This document shows, piece by piece, positions 40,401-49,400 of a DNA stretch of 64,000 bases; positions within the stretch are counted from its first letter, which is position 1, and each line of letters starts with the position of its first letter. Position numbers: made by a program. Source of the stretch: Desulfobacterales bacterium (lineage in GTDB: Bacteria > Desulfobacterota > Desulfobacteria > Desulfobacterales > UBA5852); contig CAXXVS010000001.1 of the NCBI GenBank assembly GCA_963674755.2, forward strand, positions 1,184,001-1,248,000, in the 5' to 3' direction.

Positions 40401-43400
40401 TATCGCCAAATACGGCGGAATCGTTGTCCTGTCGGATTTTGTCGGCGATTCCCTGTTCCCGCTGCTGTTGGAACGCTTGAACATCTATACCGACCCCCAG
40501 CGGCCCATGACCGTGACCGAGGGCATTTTCGAAATCAACAACCCGGACGAGAATTCGCCGGTGCTGGTGACCACCAACTTCGCCCTGACCTACTTCATCG
40601 TGTCCGGCGAGATCGAAGCCAGCAAGGTGCCCGCCTGGCTGCTGATCAAGGATTCCGAAGGGTTGTCGGTCCTTACCGCATGGGCGGCCGGCAAATTTGC
40701 CGGCGACGATGTGGGCATGTTCGTCAAGAAGAGCGGCATCATGGACAAGGTCAAACATACCGAACTGATTATCCCCGGTTACGCGGCTGCTATTGCCGGT
40801 GATGTGGAAGAAGAACTGCCTGGCTGGACCATTACGGTGGGGCCGCGTGAGGCCGCCCATCTGCCCGGCTTTCTCCGCGGGCGGTAATTTTTTATATCGC
40901 TGCCGGTTTTACAGGGGCGGTGCTGGTTCAAGGCCGCCCAAGCCCAATCGGCCAGGAAACAAAGCCTACGAGAGAGGGAGGTTCTATGCTACTGTTTGGT
41001 GAAAGTTTGAATGTGATTTCCACGAAGATCGGCCGTGCCTTCAAGGAGCGGGACCCCAAGCCGATCCAGGAAGAGGCCCTGTTTCAGAAAGAAAAACGGA
41101 TGGACTACATCGACATCAACCTGGGACCGGCCAAGAAGGACGGCCACGAATTGATGCCCTGGGTGGTGGAGGTGGTTCAGGATGTTGTGCCTGATTTGCC
41201 CCTGTTGTTGGACACATCCAATATCGACGCCATCGAAGCCGCTTTGAAAGTGATCAAACAGGTGCCCAGCGGCACGCCGCATATCATCAACTCCATCATG
41301 GTGCGGCCGGAGCGCTATGAGCGCATGGTTCCCATGGCGGCCGAACACAATGCCGACTTCGTCGCTTTGATGTGGGGCCCCGAGGGGCTGCCCCGGGATG
41401 AAAACGAACGCGCGGCCCTGTGCGTCGAACTGCTTTATTTCGCCAACGAGGCCGGCATTCCCAACGAGAAAATCTGGGTGGACGGTATCGTTACCCCCGT
41501 CAATATCCAGCAGCCTCAGGCCATCAGCCTGATGGAATTCCAGAAGATGATTCCGGACATGGCCCCCGGCGCCCGGAGCACCTGCGGCCTGTCCAATATT
41601 TCCAACGGTCCGCCTGACCACCTGCGGCCCATTCTTAACCAGACGTACACTGTGATGCTGATGAAATGCGGCATGGAATCGATCATCTCGGATCCCCGCG
41701 ACGAGCTGCTCACCGCCATCTGCAAGGGTGAGCGCCAGGACATCGTGGATCTGATTTACGGCATGTTGGACGGGCAGGCACCGGATGTGGGTGGACTTTC
41801 CGAAGAGCTGCTGAAATACAAGAAGACGGTCGATGTCATCCTGGGCAATACGCTTTACTCGGATTCATGGCTGGAGGTCTAAACCCCTGCCCTGCCTTCA
41901 CCGATGGATGCATAAAAAGCCCTTCCACCGGGAAGGGCTTTTTGTACTTTTGCCCAGACGGTTGGCCGCGGCGGTGCTTTAGCCGCCCCGCAGCCTCCTG
42001 CCACAAAAGAAAGGATCGGAATTCCCATGGCCAGGGTTGACGATTATCGGGCCGCGCGTGCGCTGGCGGCCGATACGCTGTCGGAGCAGACCATTGCCGC
42101 AATCAGTGAACGGACCGGTCTGGTCTGCCGGGATGACGATCACTTGGAAATCCGCTTTTTGGACCGCCGCTATGGGATCCGTTATCCGGAATTCGAATTC
42201 GAGGATTTGGAGGCCGCGGAGCGGGAGATCCCCCTCCAGGAACAGGTTCTGATCCTCCATTACATGCTGGGGGCCGACCCCCGACGAATCCCGGGCGATA
42301 TGATCGCCTATCGCGAAATTCCCGGGGCGTCCTTCTATTTCGGCCCTTTCGTCAAGCGGGCGGTCAATCCGCTGAAAGAAACCTTCGGCCGGAATCTGGA
42401 AGCGTTTCACCGGGCCTGTCGGGCTTTGGCGGGATCGCCCATCGATGCGGGCGATGCCGGCTATCGGTTCCAGGTTTTCCCCCAGCTGGCCATGCATTAT
42501 ATTCTCTGGGAAGGCGATGAAGAATTCGATCCCGAAGCGAATATTTTGTTCAATGAAGCGACCGGGGAGTGTTTGTCGCCGGAGGACGCCGCCTGGCTGG
42601 CCGGGATGGTGGTTTACCGCTTGATGGCCCTCAGCCGCGGTTAACCAGGGGCCAAAGAATGCCTTTGCGGGACGGCCGGCTTCATTGCCATGAGAGCGGC
42701 TTTCTGAAAGGCGATTCCCGACGTTGCCGGTCGAACGAGACCATCGCGCCCGGGGGGCGTTGGCGACGTTAGATGACCAATGGCAGGCGTAGGAGAAGAC
42801 CGGAATGATCCGCTCCAAAGCGCTGGAAGTCAATATAGCGGATTACCACGTCGATGTGAAAATCGACCCGCAGTATGCCGTCCTGCAGGAGGTGATGGCG
42901 ACCTATTTCGGTTTGCAGGAAGGTTTGACCACCTTTCTAAAAGAATTATCCCATCCTTACAAGAACTGGAAATTTATCGTCAAGGAAGCCCGCATCTACT
43001 CCCTTGACTATTTCCATCTGATCCGATCCCACTCCGAGGGACCACGCGCGGCCCAGATCTATATCGATATCTATCTGCGCGCCATTGAATCCACCCGTAC
43101 CACTGATGTCTGCATTGATGCGGTGGACAATTTGATGCTCCTCCTGCTGAAGATTGTCAAAGAATCGGGGGAGGTCTTCGAGTGCTTTGCGTCCGTTCTG
43201 GACGACGCTTTACGGAGCATCCGCCGCTATGACAGCGCAATTTTCATGGTGTTTCTTAAAAGCTACTACCAGCTGAACCGGCTCGGCGAGGCCGCCTTGA
43301 AGCTGGGTCCTCCCCATCTCGAACAGCTGCCGCATCTGAATTTGCTGCTGATACGGTTTTTTCAGGACAGCTATGCCTACTGGATGAAGGAAGAAGACCC

Positions 43401-46400: not shown

Positions 46401-49400
46401 CTTTCCTAACATTTTTGCGGCGCTGGAAGGGTTTGCGCGGGATCTGGTCTTCAAACGGGGGTGGAGCCCCCAGGAGATGGAGTTCACCTTCGAGGGCGAC
46501 CGCGGCGAAGATCTTTACATCCTCCAGAGCAGGGACATGGCCATCCGGGAGCGCAAGAAATTCATGATGTTCGACCATGAGGAACTCGGCCGCAAACATC
46601 CCATCGGCCATGGCATCGGTGTCAGCGGCGGCGCCATGAGCGGGCGCCTGGTATTCACCCTGGACGAGATCGACTATTGGCGCAAACTGGAGCCCGGGAC
46701 GTCGTTGATCTTGGCCCGCGCGGATACGGTTCCGGATGATATCCGTGAAATCCACGCCGCGGACGGTTTGCTGACATCGCGTGGGGGGCTGACGTCCCAT
46801 GCCGCCGTGGTGGCCCATCGCCTGGGACGGACCGGTGTGGTCGGCTGCGGGGAGCTGATCTGCGACGAGAAGAAGAAGATCTGCCACATCAGTGAAGCGA
46901 TTCTCAGCTCGGGGGATTACATCAGCATCAACGGACAGGAAGGATCGGTATACCAGGGATTGATCAAAGTCGAAGAGACATGATGGGGCAACGGGTGCTT
47001 TCCGCGCAGCGGTTCCGGGAGACCGCCAAGCGGGATCGTGGGCAACCGCGACCGACAACACTACGGGGGAGAAGACATGCAACAGTCAGCGGATAGGGGA
47101 CGGGGAGGCAAACTGGGCGTCAACGGGTTCGGGCGGATTGGCAAGCTGACCGTGTGGTACCATGTGGCCCGTAAATTTTTCAGCGAAATCTACGTCAACA
47201 TCGGCCGCGAGGCGGGTACGGGCATGGCCGATCTGGCCCATTATGTGGAAAGGGACTCTTCCTACGGTCGTCTGGGCCAGTTTCTTTACGGTCACCGGCA
47301 GTCTTCGGTGATCGAAGCCATCGACGAGGCGAACCATTGCCTGACCATCGACGGGATCAAGGTGCACTTTCTCAAAACGGCCCGCAATCCGTCCGCTATC
47401 GGCTGGCGCGACCACGATGTGAAACTGGTGGTGGAAACGACGGGCCGGTTTCTGGATCCCACCCTGCCCCCCGATCATCCGGCCGGGGCGGTGCGCGGGC
47501 ACCTGGAAGCCGGGGCGAATATCGTGGTGGTCTCCGCCCCTTTCAAGATCAAGGATAAGGGCCAGCCCATGCCGGAAGATGCGATCACGACGGTCATGGG
47601 GATCAATGCCAACGACTTTGATCCGCGCCGTCACCGGCTCGTGTCCAATGCGTCCTGCACCACGACCTGTCTGGCCCACATGGTCAAGCCGCTCCTCAAC
47701 TACTTCGGCCCCAAGCGGATTCTGTCCGCCTCCATGGCCACCGTGCATTCGGCGACCGGGTCCCAGGCCGTACTGGACCGGCTGCCGAAAACAGGCGTTA
47801 AAGATCTGCGCAAAAATCGCAGCATCATGAACAACATCATCCTGACCACCACCGGGGCGGCCAATGCCCTGCGCCTGGTCATTCCCGAGATGGAGGAGAT
47901 CGGGTTCATCGCCGAGTCGGTCCGGGTGCCTACGGCCACCGGATCGTTGATCATTCTGGTGCTGGACGTCCAGGAGGAGATGGGCGGCGAGCCTGTCCGG
48001 CGGGACACCATCAACACGATTTATCGGCAGACCGCCGCGATGGATCCCCACGGCTATTTGCATTTTTCCGAGAAACAGAACGTCTCCGGCGATATCGTGG
48101 GCTATCCCCGGGCCGCCACCATTATCGAAGGACACGAAACCCACACCCGTACGGCCGAGGTGACCTTCAATCTCAGCAATCTCACCGGGGTGCCCGACAG
48201 CGTTCTGGAGGCGGTCAAGGGGCATGTCTACCGGATTCCGATCACCCAGGTCGTCACCTATGGCTGGTATGACAACGAGATGGGAAGCTATGTGAACATG
48301 CTGGGAGACCGGGCGGTCAGCGTGGCGGAACACATGATGTAGGCGTGGCTGGGCCGGGGCCGGGATTGGACATCCGCTTCATGACGTGGTCCGGGAATGG
48401 GGGCAGACGGAAAGGACCGGACAATTGGCGCGGCGTATCACGCGGTCGGTGGTGGAACCCAAGAACATGGTGCCGATCAGGCCGTGCCCCCGAACCCCCA
48501 GCACGATCAGATCGATGGCCTGTTCTTCGGCATAGTGCAGCAGTTGGCGGTAGGGTTGCCCCTCTTCCAGGACGGTGACCGGTTGGCACCAATGACGGGC
48601 TTCTTGCGGCACCAAAGCGTCGACCTTGGACTGCAAAAAGTCGCGGATGACCGCCGTCGATGCCGGTTGATGGGCGAAAACGGGTTTGAGGGTTTCGGTG
48701 TAAAGCGGTGTTTCAATAACGTGCATCAGGTGGAGTTCCGCCTGGAATTCCTGCGCCAGGCTCAAGCCGTGCCGGAAGGCGAGATCGGCATCCGGGGAAA
48801 AGTCGCACCCCACCAGGATGCGCTTGAAGCGCAGGGCGGCTTCCGGCATTGCAGCTGCCTCGCCATCAGCGGCGGGGATGACCAGCAGCGGGCAGGGCAG
48901 GGTGCGCATGAGGCGTTCGGTAACGGACCCCAGCAGCATGCGCTTTAGCACCCGGCGGCCCTGGGTGGCGGTCAATACAATGTCAACGGCCCTTTCCCGG
49001 GCTTCCCGCGTGATTTCCTGCGCGGCCGGCCCGACGATCACCAAAGACTCCCAGTCCACCGCGTGGCCCTCCATCAATTCGGCAATGCGCTTCCGGGCAA
49101 AGTCCATGCTGCGATGCAACTGCTCCTCCGGTGCCAGGTAAGCTTCGCCGTAGATCGAGGGTGCCGGCAGATGGATGCAGTGGCATACCAGCAGGTGGGC
49201 GCCAAATTCGTGGGCTAAGGTGATGCCGTGGGCAATGGCTTGGTGGGAGATGTCGGACAGGTCTGTCGCACAAAGAATGCGTCGAAACATGACTCTCATT
49301 TCGTATCCTTTCGTCTGGGCGGTTGGGGTGCCTGGCACCCGGATGATCGCGAGGTCGGAAAGGCCGGCTCCTCTGGGGAGTCGGTTGAGAAAAGAGAATT

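What a model noticed while it worked through the whole genome (the two positions that open the first line are those of the whole stretch)
42805..48342. Giant dikinase-like protein (new 900-residue all-helical domain in place of the PEP/pyruvate barrel) paired with an atyp [...]
g01086 (1392 aa) has the ATP-grasp nucleotide domain and the swivelling phosphohistidine domain of pyruvate phosphate dikinase (residues 907-1391, TSH histidine kept) but no PEP/pyruvate-binding TIM barrel. Instead it carries a 900-residue N-terminal domain with no Pfam family and no clear structural relative, studded with invariant His, Asp, Arg and Lys residues. It is followed by g01087, a 421-aa GAPDH-like protein with about 85 extra residues that keeps the catalytic SCTT cysteine, beside two ordinary gap genes elsewhere. 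I propose a two-enzyme unit that phosphorylates an unknown substrate via phosphohistidine and oxidises or reduces the product (acyl-phosphate/aldehyde chemistry).
Evidence so far: swissprot.tsv: g01086 matches PPDK only over 907-1391 (37% id, PPDK residues 19-514 of 874); Pfam at E<=1 finds nothing in 1-900. The N-terminal domain has 238 representative clusters at E<=1e-30, most full-length ones 1350-1430 aa long, 27-53% identical; an alignment of 40 shows 26 invariant columns, e.g. H401, D439, D441, R483, R504-K505, H508, K681-R682-H683. AlphaFold model from that alignment: mean pLDDT 87.5, pTM 0.79, almost all helices; best Foldseek PDB hits are generic solenoids with TM <=0.17; VIA-align against 48,161 chains gives at best Z 9.5 on a 95-residue helical bundle (residues 730-871), within the range the tool calls common for helical models; the conserved core alone (re [...]
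(Added by a program. Inside this text positions count along the whole contig: contig position 1,184,001 is position 1 of the stretch shown here. "Call 12" and the like, gene names such as g00115 and contig names such as C1 are that model's own, and its searches are not shown. The text may have been shortened before it was handed on; [...] marks where a part breaks off. The agent that wrote the report below was given it as the finding of a first reader that could run no searches.)

Follow-up and report, generated by a model that had tools for sequence, protein, structure and literature searches.

The report
Barrel-less giant dikinase with dedicated GAPDH
A very large, unstudied enzyme that keeps the ATP-driven "swinging histidine" half of pyruvate phosphate dikinase but carries a new 900-residue helical domain is inherited together with its own unusual glyceraldehyde-3-phosphate dehydrogenase, which points to an undescribed phosphate-transfer step in the lower part of glycolysis or gluconeogenesis.

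Summary
ORF 42805-46983 (+, 1392 aa) matches PPDK only over residues 907-1391, with ATP-grasp, swivel domain and TSH histidine. It ends without a PEP/pyruvate barrel. Residues 1-900 have no Pfam, NCBIfam or PDB sequence relative. Neither the whole domain nor its conserved core (372-732, pLDDT 88) has a structural relative. A 421-aa GAPDH paralog ("GAPL", 47077-48342) follows.

New here:
- In 401 genomes of the phylum, both genes occur in 116. The dikinase occurs alone in 2 (both remnants), GAPL alone in 7, and neither in 276.
- GAPL is adjacent in 66 of 66 close loci with room, 17 of 20 phylum-wide loci and 60 of 80 distant metagenome loci.
- Outside this order the pair sits inside the gap-pgk-tpiA-secG operon. 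The CODH/ACS neighbourhood is lineage-specific.
- GAPL keeps the catalytic Cys/His and both phosphate sites of a phosphorylating GAPDH.

Best reading (about 0.35): an AMP/PPi-coupled 3-phosphoglycerate dikinase makes or uses 1,3-bisphosphoglycerate and hands it to a dedicated GAPDH. No biochemistry supports this yet.

The scan has noted the same pair on other genomes (for example e1-3326715, e1-4816125). Five literature searches found nothing on the family.

The parts
42805..46983 (+). Giant barrel-less dikinase gene (1392 aa)
   Evidence: ORF and translation. Pfam, NCBIfam and PDB matches lie only in 907-1391. Full-length relatives of 1335-1540 aa share this architecture.
42805..45504 (+). 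N-terminal domain, residues 1-900: all-helical, no known family or fold. Polar residues invariant across phyla: E47 H50 H401 D439 T440 R483 D490 R495 R504 K505 H508 K613 Y614 K681 H683 S690 Y692 D857
   Evidence: No hit in Pfam, NCBIfam or PDB sequences. Model and fold searches. Invariants in 35 sequences at 24-93% identity.
43918..45000 (+). Conserved core of the N-domain, residues 372-732. It holds the motifs FIKDTDLF, NDIGAEGxLRD, FLRKQxHVES and KKRHxxxDIPSMYGSY; the last forms a beta-hairpin in the model.
   Evidence: Folded alone from 45 sequences: pLDDT 88.2, pTM 0.84. Foldseek PDB gives 0 matches at E<=0.001 with TM <=0.18. VIA wide gives best Z 6.3 and none >=8 among 48,161 chains.
45523..46584 (+). 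PPDK-type nucleotide-binding (ATP-grasp) domain, residues about 907-1260
   Evidence: PPDK_N Pfam match at 948-1194. TIGR01828 positions 18-335. Alignment to PPDK structures from chain residue 19.
46600..46980 (+). Phosphohistidine swivel domain, residues about 1266-1392, at the very C-terminus. The catalytic His1332 codon is at 46798-46800 (TSH).
   Evidence: PEP-utilizers at 1302-1380. 2fm4_A central domain of PPDK, E 8.5e-25. Codon checked. S1331 is invariant and H1332 has at most 2 exceptions in 35 sequences.
47077..48342 (+). GAPL: 421-aa GAPDH paralog (alternative GTG start at 47038). The catalytic Cys codon is at 47656-47658.
   Evidence: Pfam Gp_dh_N and Gp_dh_C. TIGR01534 scores 312.6 bits against a cut-off of 367.2. 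Alignment with the genome's two canonical gap genes. 45-sequence alignment with invariant residues inside the insertions.
35133..42644 (+). Upstream neighbours in this lineage only: CODH (35133-37163), ACS beta (37209-39422), CdhD-type corrinoid protein (39547-40887), methyltransferase AcsE-like (40920-41882), DUF3786 (42027-42644)
   Evidence: Pfam and NCBIfam. AcsE lies upstream in 41 of 80 close loci and DUF3786 in 13 of 80. Neither appears in any of 20 phylum-wide loci.

Best explanation
The two genes encode one metabolic module acting at the glyceraldehyde-3-phosphate dehydrogenase node of central carbon metabolism.

Inferred from homology to PPDK: the C-terminal half of the large protein uses ATP and orthophosphate to load a phosphoryl group onto His1332, releasing AMP and pyrophosphate. 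The histidine domain hangs on a single linker and swings to a second active site.

Inferred from conservation: this second site lies in the new helical N-domain, formed by its invariant Arg/Lys/His/Asp residues and mobile conserved loops.

My specific proposal, not shown: the acceptor is the carboxylate of 3-phosphoglycerate. The enzyme would then be a 3-phosphoglycerate, phosphate dikinase: 3-PG + ATP + Pi <-> 1,3-bisphosphoglycerate + AMP + PPi. That is a second, AMP/PPi-coupled route beside phosphoglycerate kinase. The labile acyl phosphate passes to the dedicated GAPDH paralog (GAPL, probably NADP(H)-linked), which reduces it to glyceraldehyde 3-phosphate.

A dedicated partner would keep 1,3-BPG away from ordinary PGK, which would otherwise short-circuit the extra driving force.

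Odds: about 0.65 that it is a small-molecule dikinase working at the GAPDH / 1,3-BPG node together with GAPL. About 0.35 for 3-PG as the acceptor.
For: (1) The chassis is intact. ATP-grasp and swivel domains align to PPDK residues 19-514 at E 1e-89, and TSH is kept. The closest model is PPDK, not PEP synthase: TIGR01828 scores 391 bits against 77-84 bits for the PEP synthase models. This suggests Pi/PPi chemistry.

(2) The N-domain looks catalytic, not merely structural. Eighteen polar residues are invariant in 35 sequences whose N-domains are only 24-39% identical outside the order. The most conserved motifs fall in low-confidence loops of the full-domain model, at 473-479, 510-512 and 675-696.

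(3) The partnership with GAPL appears obligate.
- In 401 genomes: 116 have both, 2 the dikinase only, 7 GAPL only, 276 neither.
- The 2 dikinase-only cases are fragments or remnants.
- The pair persists in families where the two genes are unlinked, namely all 6 f26 and all 5 f57 genomes.

(4) Adjacency. GAPL is adjacent in 66 of 66 close loci with at least 1300 nt of room, in 17 of 20 phylum-wide loci and in 60 of 80 distant metagenome loci.

(5) Context is the triose-phosphate operon.
- gap-GIANT-GAPL-pgk-tpiA-secG is seen in, for example, L092, L094, L098 and L099.
- GAPL<- GIANT->gap->pgk->tpiA is seen in 17 metagenome loci.
- Of the 20 phylum-wide loci, a canonical gap lies in 12, pgk in 11 and tpiA in 12.

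(6) GAPL keeps the catalytic Cys and His and the equivalents of T179, R195, R231 and T208/G209 (residue roles and numbering recalled from Bacillus stearothermophilus GAPDH). Its substrate should therefore carry both an acyl phosphate and a C3 phosphate.
- It loses the NAD-specifying Asp; an invariant NIGR insert stands there.
- It has invariant residues inside its insertions: FLDP, PFK, LDxxP, H356/R358/T359.

(7) Precedent, from established knowledge: carboxylate kinase plus GAPDH-fold acyl-phosphate reductase pairs (PGK/GAPDH, ProB/ProA, ArgB/ArgC, Ask/Asd) are usually encoded together.

(8) Rough thermodynamics, recalled standard values: 3-PG + ATP + Pi -> 1,3-BPG + AMP + PPi is near equilibrium at about +3 kJ/mol. 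PPi hydrolysis would pull it.
Against: - No assay, ligand docking or complex model supports 3-PG or any other acceptor.
- PGK is present in all 6 pair-bearing genomes checked and is often co-transcribed with the pair. Free 1,3-BPG would then give a futile cycle.
- In families f26 and f57, GAPL sits next to pgk while the dikinase sits elsewhere (G016, G278). GAPL may therefore simply work with PGK.
- A 900-residue domain is far larger than a 3-PG site needs. Large helical domains are typical of protein-binding scaffolds.
- Three near-complete genomes (G112, G279, G311) have a GAPL-like gene without the dikinase.
- The NADP assignment is an inference from one motif.
- Residue roles in GAPDH are recalled, not taken from a call.
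Confidence: 0.35

Rival explanations
1. Same activation-reduction logic, but a different acceptor. The dikinase phosphorylates another phosphorylated carboxylate or related small molecule, such as 4-phosphoerythronate, 2-phosphoglycerate, glycerate or phosphoglycolate. GAPL then reduces or oxidises that product rather than 1,3-BPG.
For: All the pairing and context evidence applies equally. GAPL scores below the curated cut-off of type I GAPDH, 312.6 against 367.2 bits. It also hits the erythrose-4-phosphate dehydrogenase models at E 8e-34. Its conserved insertions near the active-site entrance could alter specificity.
Against: Every GAP / 1,3-BPG-contacting residue I could check is unchanged. 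The operon partners are gap, pgk and tpiA, not pentose-phosphate or pyridoxal genes.
Confidence: 0.2
2. A regulatory or protein-directed enzyme. Like PTS Enzyme I, the swivel histidine passes its phosphate to a protein, either GAPL itself or another factor. Alternatively the large helical domain is a scaffold or sensor that controls flux or repairs GAPDH. ATP replaces PEP as the donor.
For: - The N-domain is a 900-residue helical assembly whose only weak structural matches are solenoids and scaffolds.
- Some relatives carry an N-terminal hemerythrin sensor domain (P0164, P0166).
- In several families the operon follows rapZ and an EIIA(Man)-type gene.
- GAPL has conserved surface insertions with invariant His/Arg.
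- GAPL sits with pgk when unlinked from the dikinase.
Against: - Eighteen invariant polar residues, clustered in short motifs rich in Arg/Lys/His/Asp, look like a small-anion active site.
- No HPr-like gene lies in the loci read.
- The rapZ/EIIA neighbourhood is absent from all 80 close loci.
Confidence: 0.15
3. An alternative pyruvate/PEP dikinase. The new domain is a non-homologous pyruvate/PEP site. The enzyme makes PEP for gluconeogenesis and is merely co-regulated with a gluconeogenic NADP-GAPDH, as pckA and gapB are in Bacillus subtilis (recalled).
For: The chassis descends from true PPDK. In this lineage the pair follows the acetyl-CoA synthase operon, from which carbon flows to pyruvate and PEP. 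GAPL lacks the NAD-specifying Asp.
Against: - A canonical PPDK is present in this genome, at 1269.8 bits against a cut-off of 843.
- A canonical PEP synthase is present in 3 of 4 other pair-bearing complete genomes checked.
- Co-regulation alone does not explain the 116/2/7/276 co-occurrence or the decay of the dikinase where GAPL is missing.
Confidence: 0.1
4. A Wood-Ljungdahl accessory: the pair serves the CODH/ACS or corrinoid protein machinery, for example through ATP-dependent activation.
For: In close relatives, AcsE lies directly upstream in 41 of 80 loci, RACo in 10 of 80 and DUF3786 in 13 of 80.
Against: None of these genes lies beside the pair in 20 phylum-wide loci or in the 80 metagenome loci. 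By my reading, at least 14 of 118 dikinase-bearing genomes have no ACS match, including all 6 of family f26.
Confidence: 0.04

Closest known systems
Pyruvate, phosphate dikinase (PPDK, EC 2.7.9.1; TIGR01828; e.g. PDB 1kbl, 1dik)
   Same: The ATP-grasp nucleotide domain and the phosphohistidine swivel domain align over PPDK residues 19-514 at E 1e-89, with the TSH motif kept. The enzyme probably runs the same first partial reactions (ATP + Pi + His -> AMP + PPi + His-P).
   Different: There is no PEP/pyruvate TIM barrel; the protein ends after the swivel domain. It carries a 900-residue N-terminal helical domain of unknown fold. It scores 391.5 bits against the 843.45 cut-off. A true PPDK exists elsewhere in the genome.
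Rifampin phosphotransferase and prodigiosin ligases PigC/HapC (dikinase-type enzymes with a different third domain)
   Same: The logic is the same: ATP-grasp, a swivel His domain on one tether, and an unrelated substrate-binding domain. For RPH this is stated in the abstract of PMC4844700 (seen only in the search listing). Weak NCBIfam hits to RPH, PigC and RedH models over the shared domains.
   Different: Domain order differs: here the substrate domain comes first. The third domain is unrelated and twice as large. The chassis here is PPDK-type rather than PEP-synthase-type. The partner is a GAPDH, not an antibiotic or pigment pathway.
Phosphoglycerate kinase with GAPDH, and other carboxylate-kinase / acyl-phosphate-reductase pairs (ProB/ProA, ArgB/ArgC, Ask/Asd)
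   Same: The proposed function is to activate a carboxylate to an acyl phosphate and reduce it with a GAPDH-fold enzyme encoded next door. The pair lies in the same operon as pgk.
   Different: There is no sequence or fold relation to PGK. The proposed energy coupling is ATP -> AMP + PPi through phosphohistidine instead of ATP -> ADP. This is a functional analogy only and is untested.
Type I GAPDH, especially NADP-linked gluconeogenic forms (best PDB hit 8wwz_A, 'GAPDH 2')
   Same: GAPL has both GAPDH domains, the catalytic Cys/His, both anion sites and the WYDNE motif.
   Different: About 86 extra residues sit in six insertions that hold invariant residues. The NAD-specifying Asp is replaced by an NIGR insert. 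It scores below the TIGR01534 cut-off. It occurs almost only together with the dikinase.
PTS Enzyme I
   Same: It has a PEP-utilizers mobile phosphohistidine domain. Weak PDB hits to EI N-terminal domains at E 0.1-0.4.
   Different: There is no PEP-binding barrel and no recognisable HPr-binding subdomain. The donor is ATP through an ATP-grasp domain.

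Membership tests
Pyruvate, phosphate dikinase (TIGR01828 / EC 2.7.9.1) | N-terminal ATP-grasp nucleotide-binding domain | tested here: met
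   PF01326 at E 7e-28. Alignment to PPDK chain residues 19-514.
Pyruvate, phosphate dikinase (TIGR01828 / EC 2.7.9.1) | Central phosphohistidine swivel domain with catalytic His in a TSH motif | tested here: met
   PF00391 at E 3.5e-15. T1330-S1331-H1332 present.
Pyruvate, phosphate dikinase (TIGR01828 / EC 2.7.9.1) | C-terminal PEP/pyruvate-binding TIM barrel | tested here: not met
   The protein ends at residue 1392, aligned to PPDK residue 514 of 874. No barrel family appears in Pfam.
Pyruvate, phosphate dikinase (TIGR01828 / EC 2.7.9.1) | Whole-protein score over the curated cut-off | tested here: not met
   391.5 bits against a cut-off of 843.45. The genome's true PPDK scores 1269.8.
Dikinase-type phosphotransferases with an alternative third domain (RPH, PigC, glucan water dikinase kind) | ATP-grasp plus swivel His domain plus a non-barrel substrate domain in one chain | tested here: met
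   Architecture. The same architecture is found in 13 of 23 relatives scanned. The other 10 are partial: 4 with PPDK_N only and 6 with no Pfam family.
Dikinase-type phosphotransferases with an alternative third domain (RPH, PigC, glucan water dikinase kind) | Homology of the third domain to the RIF-binding, PigC or CBM45 domains | tested here: inconclusive
   NCBIfam hits to RPH, PigC and RedH models cover only 1100-1350. Nothing matches 1-900 in Pfam or PDB sequences. Fold searches list none of these, which does not exclude them.
Type I phosphorylating GAPDH (TIGR01534) | Catalytic Cys and His, and the two phosphate-binding sites | tested here: met
   SNASCTTT, TVH(S/A)AT, DLRKNR, TTTGAA and VR(V/I)P are invariant or nearly so in 45 GAPL sequences and align to the genome's canonical gap genes. 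Residue roles are recalled.
Type I phosphorylating GAPDH (TIGR01534) | Score over the curated cut-off; NAD-specifying Asp after the first beta-alpha-beta | tested here: not met
   312.6 bits against 367.2. An NIGR(E/Q)AG insert replaces the canonical (A/L)IND.
Type I phosphorylating GAPDH (TIGR01534) | GAP + NAD(P)+ + Pi <-> 1,3-BPG activity | not testable with these tools
   Needs an enzyme assay.
Phosphoglycerate kinase (functional analogue only) | PGK fold / PF00162 | tested here: not met
   PF00162 matches only the separate pgk gene. The claim is that it works like a PGK, not that it is one.
PTS Enzyme I | PEP-binding C-terminal barrel and HPr-binding subdomain | tested here: not met
   Only the mobile domain matches, at E 0.1-0.4 to EI N-terminal structures. 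There is no barrel.

The most novel reading that the evidence does not exclude
The dikinase runs lower glycolysis on pyrophosphate: 1,3-BPG + AMP + PPi -> 3-PG + ATP + Pi.

Together with ordinary PGK it would form a cytoplasmic cycle whose net reaction is AMP + PPi <-> ADP + Pi. If GAPL (NADP) and the canonical GAPDH (NAD) run in opposite directions, the cycle would also act as a PPi-driven NADH-to-NADPH transhydrogenase.

In sulfate reducers, sulfate activation releases exactly AMP and PPi. The cycle would recover the pyrophosphate bond energy that is usually assumed to be lost.

The new helical domain would be a previously unseen fold for acyl-phosphate chemistry.
Probability: 0.1. Interest if true: 0.92.

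Novelty: new variant of a known kind. Interest (0 to 1): 0.78.

Why it matters
Lower glycolysis and gluconeogenesis are usually treated as fully mapped. Here a strongly conserved, single-copy pair of genes sits inside the gap-pgk-tpiA operon. It is present in 118 of 401 sampled genomes of one phylum (77 of 255 genera), including 1.5-1.8 Mb genomes, and in at least three other phyla. Annotation calls the dikinase "pyruvate, phosphate dikinase", yet it cannot be one.

If the dikinase makes or uses 1,3-bisphosphoglycerate with AMP/PPi coupling, three things follow:
- It would add a new reaction to central carbon metabolism.
- It would change energy budgets for anaerobes living near the thermodynamic limit.
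- It would correct metabolic models of sulfate reducers, syntrophs and marine-sediment bacteria.

The core of the new domain (pLDDT 88) has no structural relative among 48,161 representative chains, so it may be a new enzyme fold. The hypothesis can be tested directly with two recombinant proteins and a 340-nm assay.

Tried and rejected
- Complex prediction of N-domain residues 330-900 with GAPL, both as 45-row alignments, scored 0.00 against a mark of 0.32: no verdict. This is neither for nor against binding. The whole N-domain plus GAPL exceeds the size limit.
- ESM Atlas look-up of residues 300-900, named clusters only: no usable hit.
- Pfam at E<=10 over 28 N-domains gave only scattered chance hits. 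The commonest was Viral_Hsp90, in 7 of 28 with a best E of 0.0028.
- The PDB profile search gave 0 hits at E<=10.
- Fold searches on the whole N-domain and on the core gave no convincing relative. A missing match does not prove a new fold.
- An apparent 814-aa GAPL-PGK fusion in L099 was an artefact. An open shadow frame upstream of pgk created it; GAPL ends with its own stop.
- The search for longer fused forms of GAPL found 2 proteins.
  - P0285 (1588 aa) joins the dikinase, minus its last roughly 20 residues, to the first half of GAPL. It is a single sequence on one 7.6-kb contig and may be an assembly or deletion artefact, so I do not count it.
  - P0286 is a canonical GAPDH-PGK fusion, not GAPL.
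- Wood-Ljungdahl role: rejected as general.
- Expression. One metatranscriptome run holds 0.06 of the sampled words. Laid, it gives two short contigs identical to the N-domain region (43469-43704 and 43818-43968) and pieces over DUF3786 and GAPL. DNA can be present in such libraries, so transcription is not shown.
- Promoter and terminator scan of 41800-48700 found nothing above shuffles that defines the transcription unit.
- Literature: five full-text searches found nothing on this family or on a phosphoglycerate dikinase. The one hit for 'phosphoglycerate dikinase' is a rice proteomics paper, seen in the listing only. Subscription journals are not covered.
- I did not reach genomes of other phyla by name. 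The cross-phylum context rests on unnamed metagenome contigs and on source names of four proteins.

Full report
**What is there**

The window holds an ORF at 42805-46983 (+, 1392 aa, ATG start). A second ORF follows after 54-93 nt, at 47038/47077-48342 (+, 434 aa from GTG or 421 aa from ATG).

The large protein has Pfam PPDK_N at 948-1194 and PEP-utilizers at 1302-1380, and nothing before residue 900. NCBIfam's PPDK model scores 391.5 bits against a cut-off of 843.45 and matches only its positions 18-335. Against all PDB sequences it matches PPDK at E 1.1e-89, query 907-1391 to chain residues 19-514 of 874. It therefore ends where the PEP/pyruvate barrel would start. The catalytic TSH histidine is H1332.

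The second protein has both GAPDH domains and the SNASCTTT cysteine. It scores below the type I GAPDH cut-off, 312.6 against 367.2 bits. The genome has two ordinary gap genes, one pgk and a true PPDK elsewhere.

**The N-terminal domain**

A profile of 28 N-domains finds no PDB sequence at E<=10. No Pfam family is shared by the members at E<=10.

My AlphaFold model of residues 1-900 (pLDDT 80.4, pTM 0.70) is almost entirely helical. Foldseek returns only generic solenoids with TM <=0.17. That range is common for helical models.

That search barely tested residues 441-725, so I folded the conserved core (372-732) alone from 45 sequences. The model has pLDDT 88.2 and pTM 0.84. Foldseek finds nothing at E<=0.001, with TM <=0.18. 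VIA-align gives a best Z of 6.3, with none of 48,161 chains at Z>=8. A missing match does not prove a new fold, but the core has no detectable relative.

In 35 full-length sequences from several phyla the N-domains are 24-39% identical to this one outside the order. Eighteen polar residues stay invariant: E47, H50, H401, D439, T440, R483, D490, R495, R504, K505, H508, K613, Y614, K681, H683, S690, Y692 and D857. Several lie in loops that the full-domain model predicts with low confidence, at 473-479, 510-512 and 675-696. This pattern suits an anion-binding active site better than a passive scaffold.

**Family and architecture**

The word-index search gave 1210 relatives at E<=0.001 among 7998 scored candidates. 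Most of the best 120 are 1390-1400 aa long. Where a source names them, it calls them pyruvate phosphate dikinase or PEP/pyruvate-binding protein.

The exhaustive profile search gave 742, 555 and 309 representatives at E<=1e-3, 1e-10 and 1e-30. I scanned 23 representatives. Thirteen have PPDK_N plus PEP-utilizers behind the N-domain, 4 have PPDK_N only and 6 (fragments) have no family. No other catalytic domain is ever attached. Two carry an N-terminal hemerythrin domain. Source names place members in Fermentibacteria, Thermoleophilia and Myxococcota as well as in Desulfobacterales.

**The pairing with the GAPDH paralog (GAPL)**

In 80 loci from species genomes close to this one, GAPL is found in 69. 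All 11 loci without it end less than 1300 nt after the dikinase. That makes 66 of 66 with room.

In an even sample of 401 genomes of the phylum, the N-domain is found in 118 genomes (77 of 255 genera). These include complete genomes of 1.5-1.8 Mb. GAPL-type genes (E<=1e-90, 48-71% identical) are found in 123.

| Dikinase | GAPL | Genomes |
|---|---|---|
| present | present | 116 |
| present | absent | 2 |
| absent | present | 7 |
| absent | absent | 276 |

(Cross-tabulated.)

The two dikinase-only genomes hold only remnants: G083 lacks the core and G140 has a 183-aa fragment. Of the seven GAPL-only genomes, four are 61-79% complete. Three (G112, G279, G311) are near-complete and lack the core.

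The pair persists where the genes are unlinked, in all 6 f26 and all 5 f57 genomes.

In 20 loci taken one per family across the phylum, GAPL is adjacent in 17. There it is 48-60% identical to the window's GAPL, while the N-domain is only 31-39% identical.

A metagenome scan seeded with distant N-domains gave 80 further loci, and GAPL lies in 60 of them. By my reading of the table, only 3 of the other 20 have room on both sides.

**Context: the triose-phosphate operon, not the Wood-Ljungdahl cluster**

In this window the pair follows CODH, ACS, the corrinoid protein, the methyltransferase and DUF3786. Among the 80 close loci AcsE is upstream in 41, RACo in 10 and DUF3786 in 13. None of these genes lies beside the pair in the 20 phylum-wide loci or in the 80 metagenome loci. 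ACS is present in 277 of the 401 genomes. By my reading, at least 14 dikinase-bearing genomes lack it.

Outside the order the pair is embedded in the classic glycolytic operon. The order rapZ - EIIA(Man) - GNAT - gap - DIKINASE - GAPL - pgk - tpiA - secG is seen in L092, L094, L098, L099 and L095. Variants occur in L089, L091, L087, L100, L102 and L103. Of the 20 loci, a canonical gap lies in 12, pgk in 11 and tpiA in 12.

In 17 metagenome loci the order is GAPL (divergent) | DIKINASE - gap - pgk (- tpiA). Where the pair is split, GAPL stays beside pgk (G016, G278). The dikinase then stays beside the canonical gap (L090, L101).

The dikinase therefore belongs with GAPDH, PGK and TPI. The ACS neighbourhood is a lineage-specific relocation, and it makes sense if the module serves gluconeogenesis from acetyl-CoA.

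**What GAPL is**

I aligned GAPL with the genome's two canonical gap genes. GAPL keeps the catalytic Cys and His and the equivalents of T179, R195, R231, T208/G209 and WYDNE. Residue roles and numbering are recalled from the Bacillus stearothermophilus enzyme. It should therefore bind a substrate with an acyl phosphate and a C3 phosphate, that is 1,3-BPG / GAP or something very close.

The NAD-specifying Asp is replaced by an invariant NIGR insert. This suggests NADP(H), by inference only.

The roughly 86 extra residues form six insertions. These hold invariant residues: FLDP, PFK, MP, LDxxP and E351/H356/R358/T359 in the 45-sequence alignment. The insertions are therefore functional.

**Mechanism proposed**

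Shown by homology:
- an intact PPDK-type ATP/Pi-dependent histidine-loading machine;
- a swivel domain on a single tether at the C-terminus;
- no barrel.

Inferred:
- the second active site is in the N-domain;
- the acceptor belongs to the GAPDH node.

My specific proposal is 3-PG + ATP + Pi <-> 1,3-BPG + AMP + PPi, followed by reduction by GAPL. It follows the general rule that carboxylate kinases and GAPDH-fold acyl-phosphate reductases are encoded together (PGK/GAPDH, ProB/ProA, ArgB/ArgC, Ask/Asd; established knowledge). It is thermodynamically reasonable, at about +3 kJ/mol from recalled standard values and pulled by PPi hydrolysis. It also explains why a dedicated GAPDH is needed: free 1,3-BPG would be taken back by PGK.

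I put about 0.65 on a small-molecule dikinase at the 1,3-BPG node working with GAPL. I put about 0.35 on 3-PG as the acceptor.

**Against it, and rivals**

- PGK is present in all six pair-bearing genomes checked and is often co-transcribed with the pair.
- GAPL stays with pgk when the pair is split.
- The domain is much larger than a 3-PG site requires.
- Nothing computational identifies the ligand.

The rivals are:
- another phosphorylated carboxylate as acceptor (0.2);
- a protein-directed or regulatory role, hinted at by the hemerythrin fusions and the scaffold-like helices (0.15);
- a non-homologous pyruvate/PEP site (0.1). This is weakened because a canonical PPDK or PEP synthase is present in 4 of 5 pair-bearing genomes checked;
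- a Wood-Ljungdahl accessory (0.04).

**Comparison with what is known, and novelty**

The chassis is that of PPDK. The design principle of ATP-grasp, swivel histidine and an unrelated third domain is known from rifampin phosphotransferase and PigC/HapC. I saw the abstracts of PMC4844700 and PMC13534948 only in the listing.

The protein fails membership of PPDK on the barrel and on the curated score. GAPL fails the type I GAPDH cut-off and the NAD signature but keeps the catalytic apparatus.

Three things are new:
- the third domain;
- the obligate GAPDH partner;
- the position in the glycolytic operon.

Five full-text searches found no description of the family. Subscription journals are not covered.

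This scan has noted the same pair on other genomes with the same general reading. I reached the operon and co-occurrence results before reading those notes, and I tested them here on independent loci.

**Verdict**

This is a real, intact, widespread and unstudied two-gene module of central carbon metabolism with a domain of unknown fold. The substrate can now be narrowed to the 3-PG / 1,3-BPG / GAP node, and the proposal can be tested directly with two recombinant proteins.

Noticed in passing
window 35133-42644 (+): A complete CODH/ACS gene set lies directly upstream: CODH, ACS beta, a CdhD-type corrinoid protein with an Fe-S motif, an AcsE-like methyltransferase and DUF3786. In 10 of 80 related loci the reductive activator RACo lies directly upstream of the dikinase instead.
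   Followed up: partly
window 48379-53444: Three genes lie downstream of GAPL. A tandem universal-stress-protein gene (48379-49338, -). A pyridine-nucleotide-disulphide oxidoreductase fused to rhodanese, CoA-disulfide-reductase-like (49589-51286, +). A PAS-PAS histidine kinase with a receiver domain (51345-53444, -). The trio is conserved only in the closest relatives (L001-L007, L024-L029).
   Followed up: partly
window 35091-37169 (-), 39553-40860 (-), 47086-48333 (-): Long antisense ORFs (692, 435 and 415 aa) mirror the CODH, CdhD and GAPL genes almost end to end. These are shadow frames typical of this G+C content (about 0.52-0.62). The same effect produced a false 'GAPL-PGK fusion' in L099.
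   Followed up: yes
P0164, P0166 (relatives, 1540 and 1455 aa): Some family members carry an N-terminal hemerythrin (HHE cation-binding) domain in front of the helical domain. This hints at oxygen, redox or iron control of the enzyme.
   Followed up: no
P0285 (1588 aa, one contig of 7.6 kb): A single predicted protein joins the dikinase, lacking its last roughly 20 residues, in frame to the first half of GAPL. It could be a natural fusion or an assembly or deletion artefact.
   Followed up: partly
P0286 (794 aa): A canonical-type GAPDH (31% identical to GAPL) fused to PGK in one ENA protein. It is not part of this family.
   Followed up: no
own genome G000 (outside the window): Seven genes carry a PPDK_N domain. 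Besides the giant these are one true PPDK (C1:1122955-1125660) and five PEP-synthase-like paralogs with open frames of 881-1063 aa that score below the PEP synthase cut-off. Their substrates are unknown.
   Followed up: no
G106:C1:505491-506720 and 1778707-1779936: One complete 2.0-Mb genome holds two GAPL copies with identical scores. One lies beside the dikinase and one far away, which suggests a recent duplication.
   Followed up: no
L008-L023 (Desulfosarcina-type loci): Here the dikinase is preceded on the opposite strand by a conserved 766-aa protein with no Pfam family (16 of 80 loci). Further on lie one or two CooC/ParA-type ATPases with ferredoxin inserts. A 240-aa protein with no family follows GAPL.
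   Followed up: no
window 54836-56074 (-) and 55850-57874 (+): A 412-aa ORF without any Pfam or NCBIfam match overlaps the start of the transketolase gene by about 225 nt. It may be another shadow frame or a mis-set start.
   Followed up: no
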